In this document: positions 20,215 through 61,930 of the stretch, in pieces
Layout of the letters: every line of letters starts with the position of its first letter
Numbering within the stretch: position 1 is the stretch's first letter
Assembly: GCA_963727485.1 (NCBI GenBank)
Contig: CAVSGM010000002.1
Coordinates: forward strand, 198,854-262,853
Source of the DNA: an uncultured delta proteobacterium
Lineage (GTDB): Bacteria; Myxococcota; Myxococcia; SLRQ01
Direction of reading: 5' to 3'
Length of the DNA stretch: 64,000 nucleotides
The notes under the pieces: generated by a model
The model's input: the letters and a program-made list of their open reading frames with translations, nothing else
Databases searched by the model: none
What the model was told of the DNA's origin: nothing
Made by a program: the position numbers and the translations under genes

Positions 20215-20326
20215 GAAGCTCGCGGCGCGGCAGGGTAGCACTTCCGACCGGGCGGCACCCGATGGTTTCGAGGCGGGCTGCCTGCTACCATCAGATTTTG
20301 CCCGGGGCGACCCCGCGTCGAATCGC

Positions 20327-46254: not shown

Positions 46255-46299
46255 GGGGTGTCTCCCTGAATCGCCCCCCGAGAGAGCAGGGAGCGTGCC

Positions 46300-46660
46300 A
46301 CCCGCCAGGGGGCTCCAAATCGAGCCCTCCCGACTCGGCTCAGCGGTCCAAGCTGGAAATCTCAATTGATTTCAACCACCTGTCACCAAGGCTCAAAATA
46401 GAGCCCCACGTGGCTACCCTCGCCCGAAGCGACACAAGCCACCGGAATCACTGTGAATCGCCTGGACCAGGCCCCGAATGGGGCTTATCCCGACCCCAGG
46501 GGACTCTTCCAAAAAACACCTGTGATCACAAGGCGTTGGAAAGAGGGTGGCGACCCCGCCGGGGCACGTCGCCCAGCTTCGGGAAAGGGCTCCATTTGGA
46601 GCCCTTTCGTCCCGGGGCGGGGCCAGATCACGGGGAAATACCAATAAAAACCGTGATTTG
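46300..46660. promoter_or_regulatory. AT-richer intergenic control region with multiple palindromes between the radical SAM gene and the divergent small-protein/kinase operon
   Basis: GGGCTC-caaatc-GAGCCC (about 46310-46327), GGCTC-aaaata-GAGCC (about 46390-46405), GAAAGGGCTCCA-tt-TGGAGCCCTTTC (about 46583-46608), TGTGATCACA (about 46521-46530), TCAATTGA, ATCACGG-N18-CCGTGAT; codon usage in short ORFs here is atypical. Confidence 0.3.
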
Positions 46661-46741
46661 GGCGCAGCCGCTCCTAGGCGAGCCCTCAGGTCTCACCCTA
46701 GAGCCAGTGGTGGCACGCCGCTGGCAAAAGAGACCAGTGCA

Positions 46742-46990
46742 ATGTCCAGGCTCGCCAAGGTCAAGGTCGTCGAGCTCGACGGGAAAAAGGTGTTCCTCCA
46801 CTTCTACGAGGACGTCTCGACCCTCGGGACGCCCCGCTACTCGGTGGAGATCCGCTTCGGCCCCGAGGACCGCGTCGTCTTCGACGGCCCCAGCATCTCG
46901 GACCTCGAGGCGACCACCCAGGCCTGCCTCCCTGCCACCTGGGCCAGCCGGCGGATGCTCGCCGGCGCGGCCTACGGCGCCCCCCACTGA
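46742..46990 (+). CDS. Small protein (82 aa, hypothetical) translationally coupled to the downstream histidine kinase
   Basis: MSRLAKVKVVELDGKKVFLHFYEDVSTLGTPRYSVEIRFGPEDRVVFDGPSISDLEATTQACLPATWASRRMLAGAAYGAPH; stop overlaps the kinase ATG (TGATG). Confidence 0.5.
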   Translation: MSRLAKVKVVELDGKKVFLHFYEDVSTLGTPRYSVEIRFGPEDRVVFDGPSISDLEATTQACLPATWASRRMLAGAAYGAPH

Positions 46991-47865
46991 TGCAACCCCT
47001 CGCCTCCCAGCCGACGCCCTCGCGTCCCTACCGCGCCGATCCCATGCCCCGCGACCCCGAGCTTCACGCCGCCCGCCTCGTCGAGCTGGGCAGCCTGGTA
47101 CCGGGGCTGGTGCACGAGCTCTCGAACCCGGCCGCGGTCCTCCGGGGCAACCTCGGCGCCGTCGTCGACCACGCCGACACCCTGGGCCGACTGGTCAACG
47201 GCCTCGACCAGGGGCAGGACGCCTCGGCCCTGCGCCGGGACCTCGAGCTCGATGACACCGCCATCGACCTCGCCGAGCTGGTGGGCGAGTCCGCCGGCGC
47301 CCTCGACGAGCTGGTCTCCCTCCTCGGCGACATCCGTCACTACGCCGCCGGCGCCGAGGCCGAGGCCGAGGCCGATCTCGCCTCGGCCGTCGCCGCCGCC
47401 CTGCGCCTCGCCACCTACGAGACCAAGTACCGGGCCGCCGTGAGCGTCGGCGTCGGCGACCTCCCTCGGATCGCCCTGTGCCCCGTCCACCTGGTGCAGC
47501 TGGTGCTGGCCCTCATCCTCAACGCCGCCCAGGCCCTCGCCGACCACCGGCAGCTCCACGGCGACCTGGGCCACGTGTCCCTCTCGGCCAGGGCCGAGGG
47601 CGACGACCTCGTCGTCCTCGAGGTCCGCGACGACGGCCCCGGCGTGTCCCCCGACCTCGCCGACCGCGTCTTCGAGCCCGGGGTCACCTCGCGGCCCGGG
47701 GCCAGGGGCATGGGCCTGTACCACGCCCGGAACCTCCTCGAGCGCGCCGGTGGCGCCCTCGTCCTCCAACCGCCCCGTGGCGGGGGCGCCGTCTTCGTCG
47801 CGCGCCTGCCCGCCCTCTCCGACGACATTCACAGTGAGGCCATCGGTCCTGTCCACAAGACATAG
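46990..47865 (+). CDS. Soluble histidine kinase core (HisKA plus HATPase, no TM or recognisable sensor domain)
   Basis: ...ARLVELGSLVPGLVHELSNPAAVLRGNLG (H-box near N-terminus)...ILNAAQAL...LEVRDDGPGVSPDLADRVFEPGVTSRPGARGMGLYHARNLLERAGGAL. Confidence 0.75.
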   Translation: MQPLASQPTPSRPYRADPMPRDPELHAARLVELGSLVPGLVHELSNPAAVLRGNLGAVVDHADTLGRLVNGLDQGQDASALRRDLELDDTAIDLAELVGESAGALDELVSLLGDIRHYAAGAEAEAEADLASAVAAALRLATYETKYRAAVSVGVGDLPRIALCPVHLVQLVLALILNAAQALADHRQLHGDLGHVSLSARAEGDDLVVLEVRDDGPGVSPDLADRVFEPGVTSRPGARGMGLYHARNLLERAGGALVLQPPRGGGAVFVARLPALSDDIHSEAIGPVHKT

Positions 47866-47989
47866 GGTCTTGTGACCATGCCCCCCCGCAGAGGTCGATG
47901 GCCGGGAACCCCGCCGTGAATACGGCGGGGTTCTCTTTTTCCGTCCCCCGCGCCCGTCGGACGAGGGGAGCGCAAGGCGCGGCCTGCGC

Positions 47990-48379
47990 CTACGCCTCGG
48001 GCGTCTCGGTCTCCCGCTTGCGCAGCATGTACTTCACCTTGCGCATCAGCCCGTCGAGGTCGAAGGGTTTCTCGATGAAGTCCTCGGCCCCGAGCTCCAG
48101 GCCGAGCTGGCGGCTGAAGGGGTCGCCCCGGGCCGAGAGGAAGAGGACCGGGATCGCCCGGGTCTGGTCGTCGGCCTTCAGCGCCCGGCACACGTCCCGG
48201 CCGTCCATCCGCGGCATGTTCACGTCGAGGACCACCAGGTCGGGTTGGTCGCTCTGGGCGAGGGCGAGGCCCTCGACGCCATCGGCCGCGGTGATCACCG
48301 TGAAGCCGTGGCGCTCGGCGGTGCGACGGAAGATCGTGCGCAGCTCGGCGTCGTCGTCGACGAAGAGGAGGCGAGCCAT
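47990..48379 (-). CDS. Single-domain (CheY-like) response regulator
   Basis: MARLLFVDDDAELRTIFRRTAERHGFTVITAADGVEGLALAQSDQPDLVVLDVNMPRMDGRDVCRALK...IPVLFLSARGD...; 129 aa; convergent with the kinase core. Confidence 0.8.
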   Translation of the reverse strand: MARLLFVDDDAELRTIFRRTAERHGFTVITAADGVEGLALAQSDQPDLVVLDVNMPRMDGRDVCRALKADDQTRAIPVLFLSARGDPFSRQLGLELGAEDFIEKPFDLDGLMRKVKYMLRKRETETPEA

Positions 48380-48451
48380 GGCGGGCATTATAGGGATCGA
48401 TCGCGTCCGCGTCTCTCCATCGGTCGCGCTCCGGTGATACGCTCCCGGGCC

Positions 48452-49693
48452 ATGCACCGCCACCTCGCCTGGCTCTGCGCCGCCACCGTCGTCTTCGCCG
48501 CCTGCAGCAAGGGGAACAGCGTCGTCCCCACGCCGGCCCTCAAGGCCCAGGCCGCCTACCACCAGGGCAACGCCAAGCTCGTCGCCGGCGACTTCAAGGC
48601 GGCGCTGGTGCTCCTGCGCCGATCGGTGCGCCTCGATCCGGGGCTGGTCCAGGCGCACCAGGCCCTGGGCGAGACCTACCTCGGCCTGCTCCGGGGCCCG
48701 GAGGCCGAGGAGCAGTTCCGCCTCGCTCTCAAGATCCAGCCCAAGAAGTACCTGGCGTGGGAGGGCCTCGGCGACGCGCTCCGCCTCGAGCACCAGCTCG
48801 ACAAGGCCCTCGACGCCTACGCCCACGCCGCCACCCTCGACCAGACCCTCCCCGATCCCTGGACCTCCCAGGGCGAGGTGCTCCGGGACCAGGACGCCTA
48901 CGCCGACGCCGCCGCCGCCTTCGAGAAGGCCGCGGCCCGCGCCTCGGGAAAGGACGTCGCCACCCAGTGGACCAGCGCCGGCGGGGCCTGGGGCAAGGCC
49001 GGCAAGTGGGACCGCGCCGCCGCCAATCTGGCCAAGGCCGCCGCCGCGACCCCCAAGGCCGCCAGCGCCTGGGACCGCCTCGGTCAGGCCCGGGCCCACG
49101 CCGGGGACATGAAGGGCGTGGCCACCGCCTACGCCCGGGCCGTCGCCGTCTCGCCCGAGGACCCGGTCCTCTGGGAGCTCCTCGGCGCCGCCCGCCGGGC
49201 CCTCGGTGACGCCGCCGGGGCCCGCAAGGCCTACGAGCGGGCTCGAGACCTGGCGCCGCACCGCGCCTCGGTCTGGGAGGGGCTCGGGCGCCTCGACCTC
49301 GACGCCAAGGACCTCCCCGCCGCCACCCGGGACGCCCACCGCGCCCTCGACGCCCTGGGGAGCACTGGCCCGTCCCAGGGCAAGAAGGGCGCCGCCGTCG
49401 CCGCCGAGGTCGAGGACGACAACGTGGTCGCCAACGTCGCCAATCTCCTCGCCAAGGTCGGCGACCACGACCGCGCCGCGGGCCTCTACCGGATGCTCCT
49501 CGGAGGCAAGGGCGACCACGATCCCCAGCTCTGGATCGCCCTGGCCCACGAGGACACCGCCCTCGGCGACAAGGCGGCCGTGGCCCTCGACTGCGCGACC
49601 GCCCGGAAGGACGCCGGAACGCAGGCGCTCACCGGCCTCGAGGTCTGCCCCAAGGCGCCCAAGCCGTCGCCGGGCAAGTCCCCGGGCAAGTAG
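48452..49693 (+). CDS. TPR-repeat lipoprotein
   Basis: MHRHLAWLCAATVVFAACSKGN (lipobox), then TPR-like units ...YHQGNAKLVAGDFKAALVLLRRSVRLDPGLVQAHQALGETYLGL... Confidence 0.75.
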   Translation: MHRHLAWLCAATVVFAACSKGNSVVPTPALKAQAAYHQGNAKLVAGDFKAALVLLRRSVRLDPGLVQAHQALGETYLGLLRGPEAEEQFRLALKIQPKKYLAWEGLGDALRLEHQLDKALDAYAHAATLDQTLPDPWTSQGEVLRDQDAYADAAAAFEKAAARASGKDVATQWTSAGGAWGKAGKWDRAAANLAKAAAATPKAASAWDRLGQARAHAGDMKGVATAYARAVAVSPEDPVLWELLGAARRALGDAAGARKAYERARDLAPHRASVWEGLGRLDLDAKDLPAATRDAHRALDALGSTGPSQGKKGAAVAAEVEDDNVVANVANLLAKVGDHDRAAGLYRMLLGGKGDHDPQLWIALAHEDTALGDKAAVALDCATARKDAGTQALTGLEVCPKAPKPSPGKSPGK

Positions 49694-49702
49694 ACGCCGG
49701 AC

Positions 49703-50389
49703 CTAGTGGACCCGGCGGTAGACGCCGACCACCACGCCCAGGATCTGGGTGTCCCGGAAGTCCTGCTGGTGGACGTAGATGGGCTGCATCGCCGCGTTCG
49801 CCGGCTGGAAGCGGATGCGGTCGCCCTCGGGGAAGTAGCGCTTCACCGTGGCGTCGCCGTCGATCATGGCGACCACGATGTCGCCGGCGTCGGCGGTGAG
49901 CTGCTTCTTCACGAAGATGTAGTCGCCGTCGAGGATGCCGTCGTCGATCATGGACTCACCGCTGACCCGGAGGCCGAAGACCTTCTTGGTGGTCCCCCCG
50001 AGGAAGAAGCTGTCCACGTGCACCGTGTCGGTGACGTTCTCCTCGGCGAGGATCGGGCTCCCGGCGGCGACCCGCCCGAGGACCGGGATCGCGACCAGGT
50101 CGCCCTCGGGGAAGATCGCCGGCACCGCCACGTCGACCGCGGTGGGGTGGGGCGCCTCGCCGAGGGCGCGCAGGGCCGGGGCGGTGAGGGCGAGAGCCCG
50201 GGACTTCTTGTCGCCACGCTCGATGTACCCCTTGCGCTCGAGGGCCTTGAGGTGGTCGTTGACGCCGTTGGTGGACCTGATGCCGAAGGCGGTGCCAATC
50301 TCGCGGATGGTCGGGGGGTAGCCGCTCCCGTTGATGCTCTGGTGGATGAAGCCGAGGATGTCCCGCTGCCGCTGGGTGAGCTCCTGCAT
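49703..50389 (-). CDS. lexA: LexA repressor
   Basis: [58 protein letters not shown]...[24 protein letters not shown]...[17 protein letters not shown] (S24 peptidase Ser/Lys region). Confidence 0.9.
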
Positions 50390-50400
50390 GTCCGCCCTCT

Positions 50401-50433
50401 CCTGAAAACAGGTTCAGGCACAAGATACTGAAC
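50401..50433. promoter_or_regulatory. Candidate LexA operator(s) upstream of lexA (CCTGAACCTGTTTTCAGG on the lexA strand, plus GTTCAG-N10-CTGAAC)
   Basis: CTGAACCTGTTTTCAGG matches the delta-type LexA motif CTRHAMRYBYGTTCAGS at 15/17; within 30 nt of the lexA start codon. Confidence 0.45.
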
Positions 50434-50502
50434 GGGCGCCCAGCGCGTCAAGAAATCCGGCGCCGCCTTCCGCCCCGGACGCCCCTGGGGTACACAGGGC
50501 CC

Positions 50503-51582
50503 ATGCGACCGGCGACCCGCCACCTGGGCCACGGGGTCAGGGCCACTCTCCGCCACCTGCCCCTGGTGGCCCTCCAGGCCTCCGTGGACCTCACCGCGAG
50601 CCTGGCGGCCCTGCTCCCGGCGGTGGTCGCCGCGGTCCTGGTGGTGCGCCACGCCGTCACGCTGGTCTCGGCCCTGCCCCCGACCCGCAACCCCCTGGCC
50701 CTCGCCGCGGCGGAGCTGCTGGGCTACCTCCTCTCGGCGCGCTTCCTGATGCCGGTGGTGGGCCTCGCCGCGGCCGGGGCGCTGCTGGTGGCGATGATGC
50801 GGGTCCTCTATCTCACCGGCGCCCTGGGCCTCCTCGCCGGCGACCTCCGCGCGGGTGGCCGGGCGCCGGCCGGCGGCTTCATGGACGCGGTGGTCGCCCG
50901 GTTCCCGGCGGCCCTCGCCGTGGTCGCCCTCATGGGGGTCGCGGGCCTCGCGGTGGCGGGCCTGGTCGCGGGCCTGGTGGGCGCCGCCGGCGCCGTGTTC
51001 GCCGCCGGGCCCTCGGTGGCGAGCGCCGCGGGCCTCGCCCTCGCCGGGAGCCTGACGGTGGTCCTGCTCGCGATCTTCGAGGCCGTCCGGCACCTCGCCC
51101 TGGTCCGCACCGTGGCCCTCGGCGAGGGCCCGGGTGTGGCCACCTACGAGGCCGGGGCCCTGGTCCTCCGGCGTCCCGGGACCCTCCTCGCCCTGGGGGT
51201 CCTGCTCCTTGGCGTCGAGCTGGCCGTGGCGGTGATCTTCGCCAGCGCCACCGGGATGCAGGGCCTCCTCCCCGCCGCCGCCGCGGCCACCGGATGGGCC
51301 GTCGGCGCCCGGGTCGTAGGCGAGGTCACGGCCACCGTGGCCCTCGCCGTGGTCGGCGTGGTCGCCTGGGGCGCCCTGGTGTCCCTGGCCCTCGATGACG
51401 CCGGGGCGCTCCCGCCGGACCCCGAGCCCGCGCCCCGGTCGACCCCGCCCGCACCCGCGCCGGCGGTCCCGGCGCGGCGGGTGTCCCTCGCCCGGCCCGT
51501 GTCGGAGGTGTGGCCGCCGGCGCCGGCGCCTCAGGCCGACGCCCCGGGCGACGACGCCTCAGACGACGACCCCTCGGCGTAG
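50503..51582 (+). CDS. Polytopic membrane protein (hypothetical), Ala/Leu/Val-rich
   Basis: Multiple hydrophobic segments (LVAGLVGAAGAVFAAG, LTVVLLAIFEAV, VALAVVGVVAWGALVSLAL); low-complexity, so the exact frame/start is uncertain. Confidence 0.45.
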   Translation: MRPATRHLGHGVRATLRHLPLVALQASVDLTASLAALLPAVVAAVLVVRHAVTLVSALPPTRNPLALAAAELLGYLLSARFLMPVVGLAAAGALLVAMMRVLYLTGALGLLAGDLRAGGRAPAGGFMDAVVARFPAALAVVALMGVAGLAVAGLVAGLVGAAGAVFAAGPSVASAAGLALAGSLTVVLLAIFEAVRHLALVRTVALGEGPGVATYEAGALVLRRPGTLLALGVLLLGVELAVAVIFASATGMQGLLPAAAAATGWAVGARVVGEVTATVALAVVGVVAWGALVSLALDDAGALPPDPEPAPRSTPPAPAPAVPARRVSLARPVSEVWPPAPAPQADAPGDDASDDDPSA

Positions 51583-52463
51583 CACCCGAGCCGGTCCCGG
51601 AAGAACTTCTCGAGGCGCAGGTTGAGCAGCTCCGGCTGCTCGATGGGCGCCGCGTGGCTCCCCTTGGGGATCACCAGCAGCTCGGCGTCGGGGATGAGGT
51701 CGGCCATCTCCTCGGAGAGCCACATGGGCGTGAAGGTGTCGAGCTCGGCGCCGACCACCAGGGTGGGCACGTCGACGTGCCCCAGGTGGTCCCGGGTGCT
51801 GTGGGCCGCGGCGTGGGAGAGGAGCCGCACGAAGACCTCCGGGTCCATCTTCCCCAGGTGGTCGAAGTAGGGCTGCATGTCCTCCCAGCGGATGAGCGAG
51901 CGGTTCACCTCCCCGGCGAGGAAGGCGAGGAGCCAGGCCATCCGCGAGGGGAGCAGCGCCCGCCACAGCCCCACCACCGCCCCGGGGAAGCCTTCGAGGA
52001 TCCGGTTGATGTAGGGCAGGCCCTCCTTGAGGGCGGCGGTGCCGTGGAAGGTGTCCAGGGGCCGGCCGTAGCTGCCGCAGACCAGCACCAGGGCGGCGAC
52101 GCGCCCGGGCATGCGCCGGTGGGCCTCGAGGACCACCTGCACCCCCACCGAGTGCCCGGCGAGGATGGCGCGCTCGCTGCCGGCGGCGTCGAGGACGGCG
52201 CCGAGGTCGCCCACCAGGTCCTCGATGGCCATGCGGTCGAGGTCCCGGGGCGTCGCCGAGCGTCCGTGGCCCCGGTAGTGCCAGCGGATCACCCGGTGCC
52301 GGTCGGCGAAGGCGGGCACCACGTACTTCCACACGAAGCCGTCGCAGCCGATGCCGTCGCAGAGCACCAGGTCCGGTGCCGTGGGGCGGTCGGGCCCGGC
52401 GATGGTGTAGTAGATCGACGTCCCGTCGGACGCCTGGCAGAACCCCTCGGTGTAGCGCTCCAT
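51531..52463 (-). CDS. Alpha/beta-fold hydrolase
   Basis: MERYTEGFCQASDGTSIYYTIAGPDRPTAPDLVLCDGIGCDGFVWKY...AILAGHSVGVQVVLEA (GHSxG nucleophile elbow). Confidence 0.8.
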   Translation of the reverse strand: MERYTEGFCQASDGTSIYYTIAGPDRPTAPDLVLCDGIGCDGFVWKYVVPAFADRHRVIRWHYRGHGRSATPRDLDRMAIEDLVGDLGAVLDAAGSERAILAGHSVGVQVVLEAHRRMPGRVAALVLVCGSYGRPLDTFHGTAALKEGLPYINRILEGFPGAVVGLWRALLPSRMAWLLAFLAGEVNRSLIRWEDMQPYFDHLGKMDPEVFVRLLSHAAAHSTRDHLGHVDVPTLVVGAELDTFTPMWLSEEMADLIPDAELLVIPKGSHAAPIEQPELLNLRLEKFFRDRLGCYAEGSSSEASSPGASA

Positions 52464-52480
52464 GACCCCTTCCCGCGCCG

Positions 52481-54047
52481 TCAGCGTGCGGCCTGGCGCG
52501 GCTCCTCGAGGCCGTACTTCTCACACTTCGCGATGAGGTTCGAGCGGCTCACGCCCAGCTCGCGCGCGAGGCGCGACTTGTTCCAGTGGGTGCGGATGAG
52601 CCCCTGGTGGATCATCTCCCGCTCCAGGGCCTCGACGGCGTGCTTGAGCTTGCCGGTGGTCTTGATGGGGCTGACCCCCTTGGGCGTCCCCACCGCGTCG
52701 CGGATCCGGGGGCTGACCAGGTCGACCCCGAGCTCGCCGTCGTCGGCGCCGAGGACCAGGAGCCGCTCGAATCTCGTTCTCGAGCTCGCGGATGTTCCCG
52801 GGCCAGTCGTAGGTGCCCAGCAGCTCGAGGCACTCGCGCGCGAGGGTCCGGGCGTCGCCGTTGCCGTGCTTGCGCAGGAAGTGCTCCACCAGCAGGGGGA
52901 TGTCGTCGCGGCGCTCGCGCAGGGCCGGGACGTCGATCTTGATGACGTTGATCCGGTAGTAGAGGTCCTCGCGGAACTCGCCGGCCTCGACCATCTTGGC
53001 CAGGTCCTTGTGGGTGGCGGCGATGACCCGGACGTCGACCTCCCTGGCGGAGGTCCCGCCCACCGGCGTGAAGGTGCCCTCCTGGAGCACCCGGAGGAGC
53101 TTGACCTGGAGGGTGGGGGACATGTCCCCGACCTCGTCGAGGAAGAAGGTCCCGCCGTCGGCGACCTCGAAGAGGCCCTTCTTGTCCTTGATGGCGCCGG
53201 TGAACGCGCCCTTCACGTGACCGAAGAGGGCGCTCTCCAGGAGGTTGTCGTTGAACGCCGAGCAGTTCTGGACCACGAACGCCTTGTCCTTGCGCGGCCC
53301 GTTGTAGTGGATGGCCCGGGCGACCAGCTCCTTGCCGGTGCCGCTCTCCCCGTGGACCAGGACCGTGGAGTCGGAGTTGCACACCTTCTCCAGGACCCGG
53401 TAGACGTCCTGCATCGCCTGGCTGGAGCCGATGATGGACTCGAAGCGGTAGCGCTCGGAGAGCTCGTCGGAGAGGTGCTGGATCTCCCGGTCGCGCTTGC
53501 CCATCTCCAGCTCGAAGGCGGCAATCTCGTCGGCGCCGAACTCGAGGAGGTCGCAGAGCTTCTCCACGCCCTCCGGGGGGATCACCGGGAGCCGCTGGAC
53601 GGCCCGGTCGAGGTCGGTGGCCCCGGGGTTGAGCACCCGGATCCGCGAGCTGGCCTGCTCGACCTGCCGCTCGGTGAGATCCTCCCGGAGGAAGCCACCG
53701 ACGAACATGAAGCCCTTGTACTCGGAGGCCACCACGATGGGGCAGCCGACGATGGTGAACCCCAGGTGGCAGTCGTGGAAGAGGCAGCGCCTGGGCTTCT
53801 TGCTGGCGCGGAACTTGTCGCCGACGAACTTCACCGACTCGTTGCAGCGCCGAAAGCCCTCCTTGGAGAAGAGCGAGAGGCGGCAGAAGTCGTTGTTCGG
53901 GGGGATGATCTGGCCGTTGGCGTGCTCGAGGACGTAGCCGGTCTTGTCGGCGAAGGCGAGCTCGAGGCCCCACCACTTGCGGATCACGTCCCGCAGCATG
54001 ATGATGGTGTGCAGGTTCTGGTAGCGCTCGTACTCCTGCAACGCCAT
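52481..54047 (-). CDS. Sigma-54-dependent transcriptional activator, paralogue of the 20327-21898 gene (same N-terminal Cys/His domain), frame change near 52765-52775
   Basis: MALQEYERYQNLHTIIMLRDVIRKWWGLELAFADKTGYVLEHANGQIIPPNNDFCRLSL...KEGFRRCNESV...; AAA+ core GESGTGKELVA...GAFTGA...GTFFLDEVGDM; HTH tail ...HWNKSRLARELGVSRSNLIAKCEKYG in ORF 52481..52693 frame; [11 protein letters not shown]. Confidence 0.8.
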
Positions 54048-54134
54048 GCTCTTTCTCCTCCCGGGACGGCCAGCGGTAAGGCGCCCCTTGGTGACTTGAC
54101 CTGACCGGCGACACCCCACCGCCGGCTGCACAGA

Positions 54135-54190
54135 ATCAGGACAATCCTACCGGCCCGATGTAGACAATCGCAAGGCACGATTGTCCTGAT
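54135..54190. promoter_or_regulatory. Nested inverted/direct repeats of GACAATC in the promoter region between the second sigma-54 activator and the divergent downstream gene
   Basis: ATCAGGACAATC ...16 nt... GACAATCG ...7 nt... CGATTGTCCTGAT: the right arm is complementary to both left copies; coordinates approximate. Confidence 0.3.
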
Positions 54191-54228
54191 CCAGGGCAGA
54201 CGCCGCCACCGAGGAGCGTTCCAAGACC

Positions 54229-55212
54229 ATGTCCGCCGTCGATCCGATCCACCGCCACGTCCCGGCCCCGGTGGCCCACCGGCTCGGGGATCGCCCGGGG
54301 GTGACCATCCTCGGCCTCCGGGACGTCCTCCGGGGGCTCGAGGGCTCCGGGCGGGTGCTCCTGGTGGCGGTGTGCGAGTCGCCCCTGGCGGTGGCACCCA
54401 TCCTCCGGGCCGCCCGGGAGCTCGACGCGGTGGTGGGGCTGGCCCCGGCGCTGCCCGAGACCGGACCCCGGGATCGCCACGCCTTCTTCGAGACCGTGTG
54501 CCGCGCCGCCGAGGAGACCGGGCACCGGCGGGCGGTGGTCACCGTGTCGCCGCCGGTGGCCCTCGGGCGCCCCGAGGACGCCGAGACCGTCGCCGAGCAA
54601 ATCTACGGCCGGGTCGACGCCGGGTTCTCGCACGTGCCCCTGGACGTGTCGGCCCTCAATCCCGCGCGCGCCGCGCCCACCATCCGCCGGGCCGCCGAGG
54701 CCCTCCTCGACCTGGAGCTGGGCCTGGATCTGCGCCTGGCCCCGGGGCAGGAGGACGCCGCCGGGGAGCTCGCCGCGGGCCTCAAGCTCCTGGGGGTCGA
54801 GGTCGACCTGGTGGGCGTCGCCGGCGAGGAGGGCGTGGGCCTCGCGGTGGTCGCCAGCGAGGTGGACCCGGTGGGGGTGAGCTGGGCCGAGGGGGACGAC
54901 GACGCCGACTTCCGGGGCGGGCTGCGCAACGCCGTGGGCGCCGGGGTGCGCCTGGTGAGCCTGCGCTCGCCGTTCACCCGCCAGGTCCTCGCGGGCCTGC
55001 CGCCGGCCCTCGCCCGGTCCCTCGAGGCCGGCGCCGGGACCCGGGGCAGCATCGCCGCCGCGCTCCAGGACCGGGGCGACGAGCTTGCGGCCCTCGACGC
55101 CGAGGCCGTGGACCGGGTCGAGGCCCGGGTCCACGCCGAGGCCGAGGAGCTCCTCCGCCTCCTGCGCCTCGACGGGGCCCACCGCCTGCTCCGGGACCGC
55201 CTGCTGGGCTGA
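54229..55212 (+). CDS. Hypothetical protein (327 aa)
   Basis: ORF 54229..55212, MSAVDPIHRHVPAPVAHRLGDRPGVTILGLRDVLRGLEGSGRVLLVAVCESPL...; no recognisable motif. Confidence 0.45.
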   Translation: MSAVDPIHRHVPAPVAHRLGDRPGVTILGLRDVLRGLEGSGRVLLVAVCESPLAVAPILRAARELDAVVGLAPALPETGPRDRHAFFETVCRAAEETGHRRAVVTVSPPVALGRPEDAETVAEQIYGRVDAGFSHVPLDVSALNPARAAPTIRRAAEALLDLELGLDLRLAPGQEDAAGELAAGLKLLGVEVDLVGVAGEEGVGLAVVASEVDPVGVSWAEGDDDADFRGGLRNAVGAGVRLVSLRSPFTRQVLAGLPPALARSLEAGAGTRGSIAAALQDRGDELAALDAEAVDRVEARVHAEAEELLRLLRLDGAHRLLRDRLLG

Positions 55213-55216
55213 CGCC

Positions 55217-55777
55217 ATGCGCATCATCGGCGGCAGCGCCCGGGGGCGGCCGCTTCGCGCCCCCAAGGGAACCGGGACCCGGCCCACCCTCGACCGGGTG
55301 CGCCAGAGCCTCTTCGACGTCCTGGGGCAGCGCTGCGACGGCCTGGCGGTCCTGGACCTCTTCGCCGGGACCGGGGCCCTGGGCCTCGAGGCCGTCAGCC
55401 GGGGGGCGGCGCGGGCGGTGCTGGTGGAGCAGGGGCGGCCGGCGCTCGCGGCCCTGGCGCACAACCTCGAGACCCTGGGCTTCGGGGACCGGGCGACGGT
55501 GGTCCCGGGCGACGCCCTGAACCTCGCCGGCCTCGCCGGGGCCCTGGGCCCCTTCGACCTGGTCCTCGCCGACCCGCCCTACGTCCTGGGGGTGGCGAAG
55601 GTCCTGGAGGCCCTCGCCGCGGCCCCCGGCCTCCTCGTCGAAGACGCCCGCGTCGTGGTAGAACACGCCCGGCGCGACCCCGCCCCCGAGCGGGTGGGGA
55701 CGCTCCTCCACCGCGACACCCGCCGGTACGGCGACACCATGGTGAGCTTCTACACAGCGCAGGGAGCGACGACATGA
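55217..55777 (+). CDS. rsmD: 16S rRNA (guanine966-N2)-methyltransferase RsmD
   Basis: [37 protein letters not shown]...[20 protein letters not shown]...LVLADPPY. Confidence 0.8.
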
Positions 55778-56250
55778 AGGTGGCCATCTACCCCGGGTCC
55801 TTCGATCCCCTGACCAACGGCCACGTGAACATCGTCGAGCGTGGGCTGGCGGTCTTCGACAAGCTCATCGTCGCCGTCGCCAGCAACCCCCGCAAGAGCC
55901 CGATGTTCTCCGTGGCCGAGCGCCGCGCCATCCTCGAGGAGGCGCTGACCGCCGATGGCCGCGTCGAGGTCGACGACTTCGAGGGGCTCCTGGTCGACTA
56001 CTGCAAGCAGCGCGGCGTCCCCCTCGTCCTCCGGGGCCTCCGCGCCGTCTCCGACTTCGAGTACGAGCTGCAGATGGCCAACATGAACCGCAAGCTGGCC
56101 CCGGACATCGAGACCGTCTTCATGATGACCGGCGAGGAGCACTTCTACATCTCCAGCCAGTTCGTCCGCGAGGTCATCAAGTTCGGCGGTGACGTGAGCG
56201 CGCTCGTCCCCGAGTGCGTCACCCGCCGCCTCAAGGAGCGTGAGTCGTGA
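55774..56250 (+). CDS. coaD: Phosphopantetheine adenylyltransferase
   Basis: [24 protein letters not shown]...; overlaps rsmD stop, conserved rsmD-coaD pair. Confidence 0.9.
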
Positions 56251-57446
56251 TCCGCCTCTCCCGGCGCGCCGCCGCCGTCAAGCCGTCCGCCACCCTCGCC
56301 ACCGCCGCCAAGGCCCGGGCCCTCAAGGCCAAGGGCGTCGACGTGGTCCTCTTCGGGACCGGTGAGCCCGACTTCGACACCCCGGACCACATCAAGATCG
56401 CCGCGGTGAAGGGCCTGCGCGAGGGTCGCACCCACTACCCGCCGCTCTCGGGGATCCCCGAGCTGAAGAGCGCCATCCAGGACCGCCTCCAGGTCGACCA
56501 CGGGCTGTCCTTCGGGCTCTCGGAGATCCTGGTCACCATCGGCGCCAAGCAGGCCCTCTACAACCTCTGCCAGGCCGTCCTCGACGAGGGCGACCAGGCG
56601 GTGATCCCCGGGCCCTACTGGGTGAGCTACCCGGACATGGTGACGCTGGCCGGCGCCGAGCCGGTCCACGTCCCCTCGGATCCCGCCGCGGGCTTCGTCC
56701 CCCGGGCCGAGGACCTCGAGGCGGCGATCACCGGCCACACCCGCCTGCTCTTCCTCAACTCGCCCTCGAACCCCACGGGCATCCTCTACCCGCACGGGGC
56801 CCTCGAGGCCATCGCCGAGGTGGTCCGCCGGCACCCGCAGATCGTCGTCGTCTCCGACGACATCTACGAGAAGCTCATCTACGACGGGCAGAAGTTCGAG
56901 AACCTGCTCATGGTCGCCCCGGATCTACGCGACCGCATCGTGCTGGTGAACGGCGTCTCCAAGAGCTACGCCATGACCGGCTGGCGCCTGGGCTGGGCCG
57001 CGGGGCCCCCGGACGTCATCGCGGCGATGCAGCGGATCCAGGGCCAGAGCACCAGCGGCGCCACCAGCTTCGCCCAGCTCGGCGCGGTGGCGGCGCTCAC
57101 CGGCGACCAGAAGGTGGTCGCCGACTTCCTCGCCGAGTTCGACACGCGCCGCAAGCACATGGTGGCGCGCCTCAACGAGATCGAGGGCATCTCCTGCGCC
57201 ATGCCCGGCGGGGCCTTCTACGCCTTCCCCGACGTGCGCGGGGTGCTGGCGCGGCGCCTCAAGGGCGAGGTCATCGGTGACACGGCGCGCCTGTGCGAGC
57301 TCCTCCTCGACGAGGTGGCGGTGGCGGCGGTGCCCGGGGCGCCGTTCGGCGCCGAGGGGTTCCTGCGGATGAGCTTCGCCACGTCGATGGCGGAGATCGA
57401 CCGGGGGCTCGACCGCCTCGCCGACTTCGTGTCGCGGCTCGACTGA
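56247..57446 (+). CDS. Class I PLP-dependent aminotransferase (aspartate aminotransferase-like)
   Basis: ...[16 protein letters not shown]...[11 protein letters not shown]...[21 protein letters not shown] (PLP-Lys region). Confidence 0.85.
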
Positions 57447-57469
57447 CGGCGCGCGGAGGAGGGCGGCGG

Positions 57470-59088: not shown

Positions 59089-59925
59089 TCAGTCGGTGTA
59101 CGCCACCGCGACCCAGCGGCCGTACTTCTTCTTGAACACCGCGACGTAGCCGTGGCCGCCGAGGTCGGCGATGGCCACCCAGGCGCCCTCGAGGTCCAGC
59201 TTGCCGAGACGCGCGGGCGGGGCGCCGTACTGCTTCACCATCGCGTCCGCCGGGAGTGTCTTCATCCCGTAGAGGGGCAGGCGGGAGAAGTCCTTGCCCT
59301 GGAAGAGCACCGTGAGCCGGCTGACCAAGTTCGACTTGGAGCGGAGGGTCTCGCCGTCGAGATCGAAGGGGAAGCCCGAGAGCTCGGCCATCGCCGCCGG
59401 GACCTGGCTGGTGAGACCCTGGAAGAAGAGCCGGGCGGTGGCGACGAGCTCGGGATTGGCGGCCGGAATCGGGGCCACCGGCGTCTTGGCCGCCGGGGCA
59501 GGCGTCGCCGCCCTCCGAGTCACCTGGGCCTTCGGCGCGGTCTTCTTCTTCGCCGGCGCGGGCGCCGGTGCCACCTTGGCCGTGGCGTTCTTCGCCGGGG
59601 TGGGGGACTTCGCCGCGCCGGCGTGTGCCTTCTCGGCGGCATGCCGCTTGGTCACCCCAAGCTGTTTGCCCGCCACGGCCTTCTTCGCCGGCTTCGCCTT
59701 CTTCTTGGCGACGGCCGGTTTCTTCTTCGCCGTTGCCGCCGTCTTCTTCGCCGGCGCGGGCGCCGGCGCCGCCATGGCCGCGGCCTTCTTCGCCGGCGCC
59801 GCGGCCTTCTTCGCCGGCGCCGCCCTGGCAGCCGGCGCGCTCGCTGCCCCGCCCCCATCCTGGGCGAAGGCCACGAGAGGGATCGACCCGGCGGCGACGA
59901 GGGCAGCGATCAGGCGCGTACGCAT
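59089..59925 (-). CDS. Secreted protein with Lys/Ala/Pro-rich AKKA-type repeats and a C-terminal globular domain
   Basis: MRTRLIAALVAAGSIPLVAFAQ (signal), PAKKAAAPAKKAAAMAAPAPAPAKKTAATAKKKPAVAKKKAKPAKK..., then ...LFFQGLTSQVPAAMAELSGFPFDLDGETL...GRWVAVAYTD; reads in frame with pyk in the ORF track. Confidence 0.5.
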   Translation of the reverse strand: MRTRLIAALVAAGSIPLVAFAQDGGGAASAPAARAAPAKKAAAPAKKAAAMAAPAPAPAKKTAATAKKKPAVAKKKAKPAKKAVAGKQLGVTKRHAAEKAHAGAAKSPTPAKNATAKVAPAPAPAKKKTAPKAQVTRRAATPAPAAKTPVAPIPAANPELVATARLFFQGLTSQVPAAMAELSGFPFDLDGETLRSKSNLVSRLTVLFQGKDFSRLPLYGMKTLPADAMVKQYGAPPARLGKLDLEGAWVAIADLGGHGYVAVFKKKYGRWVAVAYTD

Positions 59926-59984
59926 CGCCCGCGAGGATGCCGAGGCCCGGGATGCCGGTCGACCATCCCGTGCCCCCGGCCCGC

Positions 59985-61404
59985 CTACTCGAATCCGGTG
60001 CAGCTTCAAGAGGTTCGTCGACTGCCGCTGGTTCGGCGGCACCCCGGCCACCAGCGCGATCGCCTCGCCCTTGCCGCAGATCCGCCGCTCCACCAGGTAC
60101 CGCTCCACCGCGTCGAACATCTCGTCGGTGGACCCGAAGCGCTTGATGGGCTGGGGCATCACCCCCCAGGTCAGGGCCATGCGCCGGAGGGTCGCCGGTA
60201 CCGGGGTGAAGGCGACGATCCGCGCTTCGGGCCGGTACTCGGAGATGAGCACGGCGCTGCGCCCGGTCTCGGTGAAGGCCACGATGGTGTCGATCCCCAG
60301 GTCCGAGGCGGCGCTCACCGCGGCCCGGGCGGTGGCGTTCTGGAAGGTGGGCAGGTCCTTGAGGAACGCCCGGTTGGACTGGGCCCGGTACCGGGGGCTC
60401 GCCTCGACCTCCATGACGATGGAGGCCATCATCTCGACCGACGCCACCGGGTGATCGCCGGCCGCCGTCTCCCCGGAGAGCATCACCGCGTCGCTCCCGT
60501 CGAACACGGCGTTGGCCACGTCCGAGACCTCGGCCCGGGTGGGCCGGGGGTTCTTGGTCATGGACTCGAGCATCTGGGTGGCGGTGATCACCAGCTTGCC
60601 GAAGGCGTTCCCCCGCTCGATGGCCGTCTTCTGGATCACCGGGACCTTCTCCGGGGGCAGCTCCACCCCCAGGTCCCCGCGGGCGACCATGATCCCGTCG
60701 GCGGCGGCGATGATGGCGTCGAGGCGGTCCACCGCGTTGGGCCGCTCGATCTTGGCGATGATCGGGGTCCCGCCGCTCATGGGATCCCCCAGGATCTCCC
60801 GGAGCGCGCGCACGTCCTCGGGCCCCTGGACGAACGACAGGGCCACGTAGTCCATCCCCAGCTGCTTGCCGAACTCGGCGTCGGCGATGTCCTTCTCGGT
60901 GAGCGCCGGCTGGCTCACCGCGCTCCCCGGGAGGTTCATGCCCTTCCGGTCCTTGAGGACCCCGCCGTTGACCACCCGGCACTTCACCTCGTCCTTCTTG
61001 ACCTTGAGGACCTCGAGCTTGATCAGCCCGTCGTCGAGGAGGATGGGTTCGCCGCGCTGCACGTCCCGGGGCAGGGCCTCGTACTCGGTGGGGATCCGGG
61101 CGGCGGTGCCGATCACCTTCTTGGTGGTGATCGTCACCTCGGCGCCCTCCTCCAGGGTCACCTTCCCGCCCTTCATCTTCCCCACGCGGATCTTGGGGCC
61201 GCAGAGGTCCTGGAGGATCGCCACCGGCCGGCCGAGGCGCTCGGAGGCCTGGCGGACCCGGCGGAAGACCTCGGCGTGATCGTCGTGGGTGCCGTGGGAG
61301 AAGTTCAGGCGGGCACAGTCCATCCCTGCCTGGATGAGGGCTTCGATGCGCTCCGGGGTGTGGGACGCCGGCCCCAGGGTGCAGATGATCTTGGTCTTGC
61401 GCAT
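59985..61404 (-). CDS. pyk: Pyruvate kinase (stop codon apparently lost; 3' end approximate)
   Basis: MRKTKIICTLGPAS...LNFSHG...MVARGDLGVE...NLLKLHRI; no in-frame stop before the downstream repeat-protein start; a TAG lies in the adjacent frame about 59985-59987. Confidence 0.85.
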
Positions 61405-61537
61405 GGGGTCCCTGCATAGGACGACCCGTGGGTGACGGCAATCACTTGACCGTGACGGGGGGGAAAACCTAGGCTGCGCCGCAGAGTTGGGTCCGAGCCG
61501 GGGGGACCGGCCGGACGTCGACCGGAGGACTCTTGAG

Positions 61538-61930
61538 ATGACCAATCCGACCCAGCAGACCAATGGCACCGAGCCCGCGGCCACGCCCGGGGGGCCGCTC
61601 GCCACCCAGAAGCGCGACCAGGACGGCGCGATGATCTTCCTGTCCTACTTCGGGATCTTCTCGCTGATCCCGTTCCTCACCGTGAAGGACAGCGACTACA
61701 TCCGCTGGCACGCCAAGCAGGGCCTCACCTTCACCGCGGTGTGGTTCGCGGCGTACATCGCCCTGTTGATCGTCAACGTCATCCCGGTGATCGGGACGAT
61801 CATCGGCCTGATCGGCTGGGCGGTGATGGGCGTCGGCGGGTTCGTCCTCTGGATCATGGCCATGGTGAAGGCCTTCGGCGGGGAGCGCTGGAAGATCCCC
61901 GTCATCGGCGACCTCGCCGAGAAGTGGTAG
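61538..61930 (+). CDS. Small membrane protein (hypothetical, two TM segments)
   Basis: MTNPTQQTNG...MIFLSYFGIFSLIPFLTVKDSDYIRWHAKQGLTFTAVWFAAYIALLIVNVIPVIGTIIGLIGWAVMGV...; GGAGG RBS. Confidence 0.6.
   Translation: MTNPTQQTNGTEPAATPGGPLATQKRDQDGAMIFLSYFGIFSLIPFLTVKDSDYIRWHAKQGLTFTAVWFAAYIALLIVNVIPVIGTIIGLIGWAVMGVGGFVLWIMAMVKAFGGERWKIPVIGDLAEKW

What the first reader, a model, noticed from the sequence alone, without database searches (positions are those of the whole stretch)
54135..54190. Nested GACAATC repeat array upstream of the second sigma-54 activator
One CGATTGTCCTGAT arm can pair with either of two upstream GACAATC-containing copies, giving alternative 12-bp and 8-bp inverted repeats. 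This could be a multi-site operator for autoregulation or a switchable RNA structure in the 5' leader of either divergent gene.
Basis: seen in the sequence. Interest (0 to 1): 0.4.

Follow-up and report, generated by a model that had tools for sequence, protein, structure and literature searches.

The report
Operator half-sites at activator gene promoter
The repeats are real and are most likely three to four binding half-sites (core GGACA) for a regulatory protein, probably the neighbouring sigma-54 activator controlling its own promoter; this is an ordinary kind of control element, although this motif seems not to have been described.

Summary
ATCAGGACAATC (54135-54146), GACAATCG (54163-54170) and CGATTGTCCTGAT (54178-54190) give the 12-bp and 8-bp inverted repeats. 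Three of the six GACAATC copies in 64 kb lie here. The exact 7-mer is not conserved, but its core is. In 19 orthologous loci of this PocR-type sigma-54 activator (Myxococcia), a dyad GGACA-N13-16-TGTCC begins 2 nt after a -10-like hexamer. In 15 to 18 of them that hexamer fits TAnnnT or TAnnnA. All 16 perfect dyads in 239 kb of genome loci lie 49-68 nt before the activator's coding match. The window's inner pair (AGACA-N15-TGTCC, 54162-54186) is the local version. The 12-bp outer arm belongs to a 32-nt inverted duplication. A fourth copy (54096-54104) is perfect in a 97.5%-identical sister genome, where the array is otherwise unchanged while the adjacent leader differs at 9%. I found no covariation, no Rfam match and no fold signal in orthologs, so an RNA switch is not supported. 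There is no sigma-54 promoter nearby. Best reading: a multi-half-site operator over a sigma-70-type promoter, probably bound by the activator itself with CbrB-like subsite geometry. The binder and the transcription start sites are inferred, not shown. This is a new member of a known kind, of modest interest.

The parts
54178..54190 (-). Half-site S1. It reads ATCAGGACAATCG on the activator-sense strand (core GGACA = 54186..54182). It is the outer arm of the 12-bp repeat and also an arm of the 8-bp repeat.
   Evidence: It aligns with the upstream GGACA arm of the ortholog dyad.
54160..54170 (+). Half-site S2, GTAGACAATCG (degenerate core AGACA, 54162-54166). It is the inner copy.
   Evidence: With S1 it forms AGACA-N15-TGTCC, the only dyad of this kind in the intergenic region with at most one mismatch.
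54135..54146 (+). Half-site S3, ATCAGGACAATC (core GGACA, 54139-54143). It is the other arm of the 12-bp repeat.
   Evidence: It is part of a 32-nt inverted duplicate of the S1 region.
54096..54104 (-). Half-site S4, TCAGGTCAA (one mismatch). It is a perfect TCAGGACAA in the sister genome L057.
54162..54186 (.). The window's version of the conserved dyad: AGACA-N15-TGTCC, which reads GGACA-N15-TGTCT on the activator-sense strand.
   Evidence: The spacer of 15 nt is the modal spacing in orthologs (13-16 nt). It is the top hit of the ortholog profile in the whole window.
54120..54151 (.). Left arm of the extended 32-nt inverted repeat (25/32 identity). It contains the -10-like hexamer CAGAAT (54131-54136) followed by CA-GGACA.
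54174..54205 (.). Right arm of the extended 32-nt inverted repeat.
54144..54173 (-). Candidate sigma-70-type promoter for the activator gene: -35 TTGCGA (54173-54168), 18-nt spacer, -10 TAGGAT (54149-54144). S2 overlaps the -35 and S3 follows the -10. It is a weak match (8/12) and is unmapped.
   Evidence: The stricter scan found nothing.
54108..54136 (+). Candidate sigma-70-type promoter for the divergent operon: -35 GCGACA (54108-54113), 17-nt spacer, -10 CAGAAT (54131-54136), then CA-GGACA. This is the same layout as the orthologs' TAGAAT-TC-GGACA. It is a weak match (8/12) and is unmapped.
52481..54047 (-). The sigma-54 activator gene (PocR sensor, AAA+ and HTH_8 domains). In this window the HTH_8 part is in another frame because of one extra base at 52770.
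54229..55212 (+). Divergent gene for a 327-aa protein with no family match. It is the first gene of a run with rsmD, coaD and an aspartate aminotransferase gene.

Best explanation

The inner pair, AGACA-N15-TGTCC at 54162-54186, is the local version of a dyad that orthologs carry directly after the -10 box of a sigma-70-type promoter. The outer copy at 54135-54146 arose with a roughly 32-nt inverted duplication. A further copy lies at 54096-54104. Core centres are 20, 23 and 41 bp apart, so neighbouring sites lie roughly on one face of the helix.

The protein that binds is most likely the activator itself, through its C-terminal HTH_8 domain. Binding would occlude the promoter and so give negative autoregulation. 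Because the array is nearly symmetrical and lies 42 nt from the divergent gene's start codon, it may also affect the divergent 327-aa/rsmD/coaD operon.

Shown here: the repeats, their conservation, and their fixed position next to a -10-like hexamer in orthologs.
Inferred: the identity of the binder, the sign of regulation, and the transcription starts.
For: - The perfect dyad GGACA-N12-17-TGTCC occurs 16 times in 238.6 kb of 36 orthologous genome loci. All 16 start 49-68 nt before the activator's coding match. Three more occur at -53 to -59 in metagenome loci.
- The 5-mer GGACA/TGTCC occurs 73 times against 9.7 expected in the 150 nt upstream of 45 distinct orthologs, and is present in 36 of 45.
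- Dyads with at most one mismatch lie upstream in 21 of 49 loci. The background rate is 0.021 per 170 nt.
- In the alignment of 19 sequences only GGACA and TGTC are invariant. The spacer varies in sequence and in length (13-16 nt), and the window's spacer of 15 nt is the mode.
- In all 18 aligned orthologs a -10-like hexamer ends 2 nt before GGACA. Depending on register, 15 to 18 of these fit TAnnnT or TAnnnA; L018 reads TGGTTT. The promoter scan recovers TTGAGT-17-TAGAAT in L003 and TTGAGC-18-TAAAAT in L021, each ending 2 nt before GGACA.
- Polyangia orthologs keep (G/C)GACA 2 nt after the -10 box. They carry further GGACA/CGACA/TGTCC copies about 20 bp apart, upstream of the -10 box and so presumably not transcribed.
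- A profile built from the ortholog modules places its two best hits in the whole window in this spacer.
- In the sister genome (97.5% identity) the array plus its extension shows 1 difference in 86 nt, against 8 in 87 nt in the adjacent leader (Fisher p 0.039). A single substitution there creates a fourth perfect TCAGGACAA.
- The HTH_8 recognition helix SRSNLIxK is invariant in all orthologs. The activator gene is the only gene linked to the motif across both classes.
- There is a precedent. The NtrC-family activator CbrB binds one forward and two reverse subsites with 12-16 nt spacers and centres 20-25 bp apart on one DNA face (PMC6296734). Nla28 of Myxococcus xanthus is involved in autoregulation, and the promoter fragments it binds carry 2-5 short repeated sequences (PMC9765219).
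Against: - No binding data and no transcription start data exist for this locus.
- In the window the promoter matches are weak (8/12), and the stricter scan finds none.
- The exact GACAATC extension is not shared by orthologs.
- About half of the orthologous loci lack the clean dyad. L002, L024/L025/L040/L047 and L027/L043 have the same recognition helix but no clear GGACA site.
- A 13-16 nt spacer range is wide for a rigid dimer.
- No sigma-54 promoter and no second GGACA array were found that would link the motif to the activator's target genes.
- The profile scores higher on the strand that points to the divergent gene than on the activator strand. Which gene is controlled in this genome is therefore open.
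- In this window the activator's HTH_8 domain is out of frame.
Confidence: 0.55

Rival explanations
1. The array is an operator, but it is bound by another DNA-binding protein encoded elsewhere rather than by the activator. That protein would control transcription of the activator gene, and perhaps of the divergent operon.
For: All the conservation evidence shows a protein-type site but does not identify the protein. Several orthologs with the same HTH_8 recognition helix lack the GGACA dyad. No GGACA array was found next to a sigma-54 promoter.
Against: The motif follows the activator gene across Myxococcia and Polyangia while its neighbours change (rsmD, the 327-aa gene, a His-rich gene, others). 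No other regulator gene is conserved beside it. The geometry of the sites matches that described for an NtrC-family activator.
Confidence: 0.2
2. The repeats act in RNA. They would form a 5'-leader hairpin, or two alternative hairpins (12 bp against 8 bp), in the activator mRNA or in the divergent mRNA, and so control stability or translation.
For: In the window the activator-sense leader (54210 to 54048) folds at -82.6 kcal/mol with z -3.84, against z -1.80 for the opposite strand. In many orthologs the dyad begins about where transcription would start, so a 5'-terminal hairpin is conceivable.
Against: - There is no Rfam match.
- There is no covariation: the score is 0.096 against 0.125 in shuffles, the core pairs never vary, and the flanking pairs are unpaired in 10 of 19 and 14 of 19 sequences.
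- Ortholog leaders have mean z -0.49 on the sense strand and -0.21 on the antisense strand, and the minimum-energy fold often omits the dyad.
- Polyangia orthologs carry the copies as direct repeats upstream of the -10 box.
- The second hairpin, which supplies much of the window's stability, is not kept in the 97.5%-identical sister genome.
- A -10 hexamer 2 nt before the arm would place the transcription start inside the 5' arm.
- The 12-14 bp stem would far outcompete the 8-bp one, so no balanced switch is evident.
Confidence: 0.12
3. Only the inner dyad is functional. The 12-bp outer repeat is a neutral by-product of a recent 32-nt inverted duplication, so the nested look has no function of its own.
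For: The arms match at 25/32, including flanks with no known role. A run of 12 perfect positions given 7 mismatches in 32 is not unusual (P 0.18). No ortholog outside the sister genome has this third copy in this position. Perfect 12-bp inverted repeats occur about twice per 64 kb by chance.
Against: The whole array is unchanged in the sister genome while the neighbouring leader differs at 9%. The sister genome has gained or kept a further perfect copy. Other lineages also carry three or four half-sites.
Confidence: 0.1
4. The repeat is a small mobile or invertible element: a miniature transposon with 12-bp terminal inverted repeats, or a recombinase-flipped promoter segment.
For: It has perfect terminal inverted repeats, and the ortholog profile scores best on the strand opposite to the activator gene.
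Against: No other copy exists in the window or in any fetched locus. There is no target-site duplication (CAGA on the left, CCAG on the right). The 32-nt segment between the arms is much shorter than I recall for known invertible segments, though I did not check that. The orientation is the same in the sister genome.
Confidence: 0.03

Closest known systems
CbrB binding sites of Pseudomonas (subsites F1, R1 and R2 upstream of crcZ, crcY and PP2810)
   Same: CbrB is an NtrC-family activator with a C-terminal HTH. It has one forward and two reverse short subsites, with 12-16 nt spacers and centres 20-25 bp apart on one DNA face, and the spacing varies (PMC6296734). On the activator strand the window has one forward and two reverse copies with centres 20 and 23 bp apart. 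Orthologs have 13-16 nt spacers.
   Different: CbrB subsites are TGTTAC/GTAACA, and they lie upstream of sigma-54 promoters, which they activate. Here the core is GGACA. No -24/-12 promoter is present. The sites lie on a sigma-70-like promoter. Binding is untested.
Negative autoregulation of enhancer-binding proteins through sites over their own sigma-70 promoter (PspF at pspF, NtrC at glnAp1/glnLp, XylR at Pr; from my own knowledge of the literature)
   Same: The activator's binding sites overlap the promoter of its own gene, in a divergent intergenic region. The expected outcome is autorepression.
   Different: In those systems the same sites also serve as the enhancer of a neighbouring sigma-54 promoter. 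No such promoter is detectable here or within 4 kb in any ortholog.
NorR enhancer sites in the norR-norVW intergenic region of E. coli
   Same: Three sites are associated with one promoter, and all three are needed (PMC2831303, abstract). That they lie in the intergenic region next to the activator's own gene is from my own knowledge.
   Different: From my own knowledge, NorR sites are compact GT-N7-AC palindromes and feed a sigma-54 promoter. Here the half-sites are about two helical turns apart and no sigma-54 promoter is present.
Nla28 of Myxococcus xanthus
   Same: It is from the same phylum. Nla28 is involved in autoregulation, and the promoter fragments it binds contain two to five short repeated sequences taken to be half-sites (PMC9765219).
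   Different: Its sequence motif and sensory domain (a response-regulator receiver) are different, and its targets are sigma-54 promoters.
MrpC (CRP family) sites of Myxococcus, GTGTC-N8-GACAC (from my own knowledge; I could not verify the consensus in the papers I read)
   Same: It shares the letters GTGTC and GACAC with many ortholog arms (GGACAC ... GTGTCC).
   Different: The arm order is opposite (GACAC first here) and the spacer is 11-14 nt rather than 8. The window's arms read GACAAT, not GACAC.

Membership tests
Enhancer (upstream activating sequence) of a sigma-54 promoter | A -24/-12 promoter (GG-N10-GC within TGGCAC-N5-TTGCW) roughly 70-200 bp downstream of the sites | tested here: not met
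   There is no match of 9/11 or better in 54048-54228. There is no match of 10/11 or better within about 4 kb in any of 49 orthologous loci. In orthologs the dyad ends about 30 nt before the start codon.
Enhancer (upstream activating sequence) of a sigma-54 promoter | Repeated short sites phased on one face of the DNA | tested here: met
   Core centres are at 54184, 54164, 54141 and 54100, giving spacings of 20, 23 and 41 bp. Orthologs have 13-16 nt spacers, and Polyangia direct repeats are 20-21 bp apart.
Enhancer (upstream activating sequence) of a sigma-54 promoter | Bound by the activator's DNA-binding domain | not testable with these tools
   There is only indirect support: an invariant HTH_8 recognition helix, and the motif travels with the activator gene.
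Autoregulatory operator over the regulator's own promoter | The site is conserved upstream of the regulator's own gene in orthologs | tested here: met
   and the sister genome.
Autoregulatory operator over the regulator's own promoter | The site overlaps the core promoter or the transcription start | tested here: inconclusive
   In orthologs a -10-like hexamer ends 2 nt before GGACA, and two of these promoters were confirmed by the scan. In the window only 8/12 matches exist, and the strict scan finds none. No transcription starts are mapped.
Autoregulatory operator over the regulator's own promoter | The regulator binds the site and changes its own expression | not testable with these tools
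   This needs gel-shift or footprinting experiments and reporter assays.
Cis-regulatory RNA (leader hairpin or riboswitch-like switch) | Match to a described RNA family | tested here: not met
   In the Rfam search of 53500-54800 at E-value up to 10, the only hits were two eukaryotic snoRNA models far below their thresholds.
Cis-regulatory RNA (leader hairpin or riboswitch-like switch) | Base pairs maintained by compensatory changes | tested here: not met
   one pair has changes on both sides, the covariation score is below the shuffle mean, and the core is invariant.
Cis-regulatory RNA (leader hairpin or riboswitch-like switch) | A fold more stable than shuffled sequence, on the sense strand, across relatives | tested here: not met
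   The window gives z -3.84, but 17 ortholog leaders have mean z -0.49. The second hairpin is lost in the sister genome.
Miniature transposon or invertible segment | Several copies in the genome, a target-site duplication, or both orientations observed | tested here: not met
   No other copy was found, there is no duplication at the ends, and the orientation is the same in the sister genome. Only 64 kb plus the fetched loci could be searched.
MrpC/CRP-type site | GTGTC-N8-GACAC arm order and spacing (the consensus is from my own knowledge) | tested here: not met
   The arms are ordered GGACA...TGTCC with 13-16 nt between them.

The most novel reading that the evidence does not exclude
A PocR-type enhancer-binding protein would use a CbrB-like array of separately recognised half-sites as a repressor operator on sigma-70-type promoters, not as an enhancer. 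In this lineage a 32-nt inverted duplication of the promoter-plus-half-site module would have made the control region bidirectional. One bound oligomer, centred on 54135-54146 between two back-to-back -10 boxes, would then shut off both its own gene and the divergent 327-aa/rsmD/coaD housekeeping operon.
Probability: 0.12. Interest if true: 0.45.

Novelty: new member of a known kind. Interest (0 to 1): 0.3.

Why it matters
If correct, this gives a testable DNA motif for a widespread but uncharacterised family of PocR-domain sigma-54 activators in Myxococcota: GGACA-N13-16-TGTCC, extended here to TCAGGACAA. The motif could be used to find the family's target genes by genome scanning or DAP-seq. 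It would also add an example of an enhancer-binding protein recognising half-sites two helical turns apart, as CbrB does. The finding does not change any general concept. Operators over a regulator's own promoter are commonplace.

Tried and rejected
- Exact GACAATC in orthologous upstream regions is essentially absent. That search led to the shorter conserved core.
- No relative closer than about 74% identity turned up in the genome and metagenome scans or in the protein search. A sister genome was found only through an identical CoaD protein.
- I tried a co-variation test between the HTH_8 recognition helix and the operator. The helix is invariant in all orthologs, so the test cannot discriminate.
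- I tried a paralog test. The window's other PocR-type activator (ATG 20327, helix SRTTLIKK) has only two retrievable relatives. One, L054, has a palindrome GCGTCCA-N5-TGGACGC after a -10 box, while L055 and the window copy have no clear equivalent. The test is inconclusive.
- I searched for the activator's targets. There is no other GGACA array in the window. The two three-site clusters are coding coincidences inside the AAA+ genes. There is nothing next to the sigma-54-like promoters near 46300 and 46711.
- The dispersed-repeat or transposon reading is rejected.
- The invertible-segment reading is rejected: the segment is short and the orientation is the same in the sister genome.
- The MrpC-site reading is rejected on arm order and spacing.
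- Literature searches for PocR-type activators in myxobacteria found nothing.

Full report
**1. The observation**

The + strand of 54120-54199 reads cgccggctgcacagaATCAGGACAATCctaccggcccgatgtaGACAATCGcaaggcaCGATTGTCCTGATccagggcag. The repeat finder reports GACAATC at 54140 and 54163 as a direct repeat. It also reports the 8-bp inverted repeat GACAATCG/CGATTGTC (54163-54170 with 54178-54185). A longer inverted repeat contains the perfect 12-bp core ATCAGGACAATC/GATTGTCCTGAT (54135-54146 with 54179-54190) and extends to 32-nt arms at 78% identity (54120-54151 with 54174-54205).

Three of the six GACAATC copies in 64 kb lie in this spot, against 3.3 expected for the whole window. A perfect 12-bp inverted repeat arises in only 10 of 20,000 shuffles of the 181-bp spacer. 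The window as a whole has five such repeats against about two by chance, so the 12-bp repeat alone would not be remarkable. The flanks outside the core match at 13/20 (P 3e-4 binomial, 0.0024 empirical).

**2. Context**

On the minus strand, ATG 54047 opens a gene with a PocR sensor domain, a sigma-54 interaction AAA+ domain and, in another frame, an HTH_8 domain. It is followed at once by an alpha/beta-hydrolase gene.

On the plus strand, ATG 54229 opens a 327-aa gene with no family or PDB match. It is followed by rsmD, coaD and an aspartate aminotransferase gene.

The organism is a member of Myxococcota. Thirty-six orthologous genome loci and 17 metagenome loci were fetched. The gene order aminotransferase-coaD-rsmD-(327-aa gene)-<>-activator-hydrolase is kept in Myxococcia. 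The closest of these shares about 74% protein identity.

**3. What is conserved**

The 7-mer GACAATC is not conserved, but its core is.

- Upstream of the activator in 18 aligned orthologs the sequence reads cGGCTAnnnT-TC-GGACA-N13-16-TGTCC-TGA. It is recognisable in about two thirds of the Myxococcia loci.
- The perfect pattern GGACA-N12-17-TGTCC occurs 16 times in 238.6 kb of genome loci. Every occurrence starts 49-68 nt before the activator's coding match. Three metagenome loci add three more at -53 to -59.
- The 5-mer GGACA/TGTCC occurs 73 times against 9.7 expected in the 150 nt upstream of 45 distinct orthologs.
- In the alignment of 19 sequences only GGACA and TGTC are invariant. The spacer differs in sequence and in length: 13 nt once, 14 nt six times, 15 nt ten times, 16 nt twice.
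- The window's inner pair reads GGACA-N15-TGTCT on the activator strand. It has the modal spacing and is the only dyad of this kind with at most one mismatch in the spacer.

**4. Position relative to the promoter**

In the orthologs a -10-like hexamer ends 2 nt before GGACA. Depending on register, 15 to 18 of the 18 fit TAnnnT or TAnnnA; L018 reads TGGTTT. A TTGAGN box lies 17-18 nt further upstream in several. The promoter scan recovers TTGAGT-17-TAGAAT in L003 and TTGAGC-18-TAAAAT in L021, each ending 2 nt before GGACA.

Polyangia orthologs keep the rule '-10 box, 2 nt, (G/C)GACA'. They add a GGACA in the promoter spacer, a CGACA and a TGTCC further upstream, about 20 bp apart, with no downstream TGTCC.

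No sigma-54 -24/-12 match exists in the window's spacer, nor within about 4 kb in any locus. The element therefore belongs to a sigma-70-type promoter and is not a classical enhancer.

**5. DNA site or RNA structure**

The window's activator-sense leader folds well (-82.6 kcal/mol, z -3.84, against z -1.80 for the other strand). That signal is local.

- Ortholog leaders have mean z -0.49 (sense) and -0.21 (antisense).
- The second hairpin (54066-54129) is not kept in a 97.5%-identical genome.
- Rfam finds nothing.
- On the 19-sequence alignment the proposed helix shows no covariation. The score is 0.096 against 0.125 in shuffles, the core pairs never vary, and the pairs next to the core are unpaired in 10 of 19 and 14 of 19 sequences.

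Identical sequence in both arms, a free spacer, copies in positions presumably not transcribed in Polyangia, and a -10 box so close that transcription would start inside the first arm together indicate recognition of DNA by a protein.

**6. The sister genome**

The window's CoaD protein is also encoded on ENA contig ERZ25039500:contig_8292 (L056/L057). That contig is 97.2-97.8% identical to window 45842-57451.

The array is identical from 54137 to 54208. The only change in 54135-54190 is an extra T at 54136. The leader 54048-54134 has 8 differences in 87 nt (9.2%). This compares with 1 in 86 nt for the array plus its extension, 2.6% for the activator coding sequence and 1.6% for the hydrolase (Fisher p 0.039).

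One of the leader differences (window A54099 to T) makes a fourth perfect TCAGGACAA in the sister genome. The window has TCAGGTCAA at 54096-54104. In the window three of the four matches to TCAGGACAA with at most one mismatch lie within 54096-54189. In L057 all three perfect copies lie in this spacer.

**7. Geometry and precedent**

On the activator strand the copies are forward (S1, core centre 54184), reverse (S2, 54164), reverse (S3, 54141) and forward (S4, 54100). The centres are 20, 23 and 41 bp apart.

CbrB, an NtrC-family activator, is described as binding one forward and two reverse subsites with 12-16 nt spacers, with centres 20-25 bp apart on one face of the helix and variable spacing (PMC6296734). 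That matches both the window and the 13-16 nt range in orthologs. It also removes the objection that such spacing is too loose for a dimer.

In Myxococcus, Nla28 is involved in autoregulation, and the fragments it binds carry 2-5 short repeats (PMC9765219). The HTH_8 recognition helix SRSNLIxK is invariant in all orthologs. The activator gene is the only gene that accompanies the motif in both classes.

I therefore consider the activator itself the most likely binder, and promoter occlusion (negative autoregulation) the most likely effect. I know this mechanism from PspF, NtrC and XylR. This step is inference.

**8. What remains unclear in the window**

- The array is nearly symmetrical about 54162.5.
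- A profile built from the ortholog modules puts its two best window-wide hits here, but on the + strand (54164-54199, E 0.1; 54132-54161, E 0.34). The activator-strand hit is weaker (E 4.8).
- The + strand has CAGAAT-CA-GGACA (54131-54143), the same layout as the orthologs' TAGAAT-TC-GGACA. The minus strand has TTGCGA-18-TAGGAT directly followed by TGTCC. Both are only 8/12 matches, and the strict scan finds none.
- The dyad starts 67 nt from the divergent gene's ATG and 139 nt from the activator's ATG. Orthologs have 37-56 nt to the activator's ATG.
- The 32-nt inverted duplication may have produced a bidirectional control region. Only transcription start mapping can decide.
- About half of the orthologous loci lack the clean dyad, some with the same recognition helix. 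No target promoter carrying the motif was found.

**9. Verdict**

The repeats are real and non-random, and they are the local form of a conserved protein-binding dyad at the promoter of a PocR-type sigma-54 activator gene. The RNA-switch reading is not. The kind of element is well known. The motif and its link to this activator family appear to be undescribed, since three literature searches found nothing. My confidence is about 0.75 that this is a protein-binding operator of some kind, and 0.55 that the activator itself binds it. Interest is modest (0.3).

Noticed in passing
window 52763-52775 (minus strand; extra base at 52770): The sigma-54 activator gene is frameshifted. It reads GAGATTCGAGCGG where the ortholog L001 has GAGATCGAACGG, which puts the HTH_8 domain (ORF 52481-52693) in another frame. 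The sister contig L057 lacks this extra base but has its own 1-nt indel at window position 53674. There are 17 indels in 2.7 kb between the two, so these are probably assembly errors rather than a pseudogene.
   Followed up: partly
window 54066-54129 (minus strand): A second strong hairpin lies in the activator leader (-39.9 kcal/mol, z -2.15). It relies on G-U pairs and so is strand-specific. The region carries 8 differences in 87 nt relative to the sister genome, and the hairpin is not kept in that genome's fold.
   Followed up: yes
window 20327-21898 (+), upstream 20234-20289: A paralogous PocR-type sigma-54 activator with HTH recognition helix SRTTLIKK. It has no GACAATC or GGACA array upstream. 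A 7-bp inverted repeat, GGTAGCA (20234) with TGCTACC (20283), brackets its likely promoter. One relative (L054) has GCGTCCA-N5-TGGACGC right after a TAGAGT box.
   Followed up: partly
window 46285-46300 (-) and 46711-46726 (+): These are the two best sigma-54 promoter-like matches in the window: TGGCACGCTCCCTGCT and TGGCACGCCGCTGGCA. They face outward from a roughly 620-bp spacer between a radical-SAM gene (44926-46365, minus strand) and a small ORF/histidine-kinase region. There are no GGACA arrays near them.
   Followed up: partly
window 54229-55212 (+): A 327-aa protein with no Pfam, NCBIfam or PDB sequence match. Its N-terminal 145 residues or so are conserved upstream of rsmD in several Myxococcia loci (L001, L003, L011, L013, L016, L029).
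   Followed up: partly
loci L014-L023, L036 (TGACCCAAGG) and L006, L017, L021, L029, L033 (TTGGGTCA); window about 54083-54093 (minus strand, TCACCAAGGGG): A second conserved short motif lies directly 3' of the dyad. It appears as reverse complements in two ortholog groups, and its role is unknown.
   Followed up: no
L002, about 3840-3900: This is the second-closest ortholog by its N-terminal domain. It lacks the GGACA dyad and has instead a perfect 9-bp inverted repeat, CTTGCAATG ... CATTGCAAG, about 38 nt apart upstream of the activator gene. Its HTH recognition helix is the same.
   Followed up: no
window 59089-61605 (-): An 838-aa ORF joins a pyruvate-kinase part to an Ala/Lys/Pro-rich segment and a further C-terminal part. 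In the sister contig L057 two separate genes are called there (481 aa with the PK domain, and 273 aa). This may be another indel or stop-codon difference.
   Followed up: no
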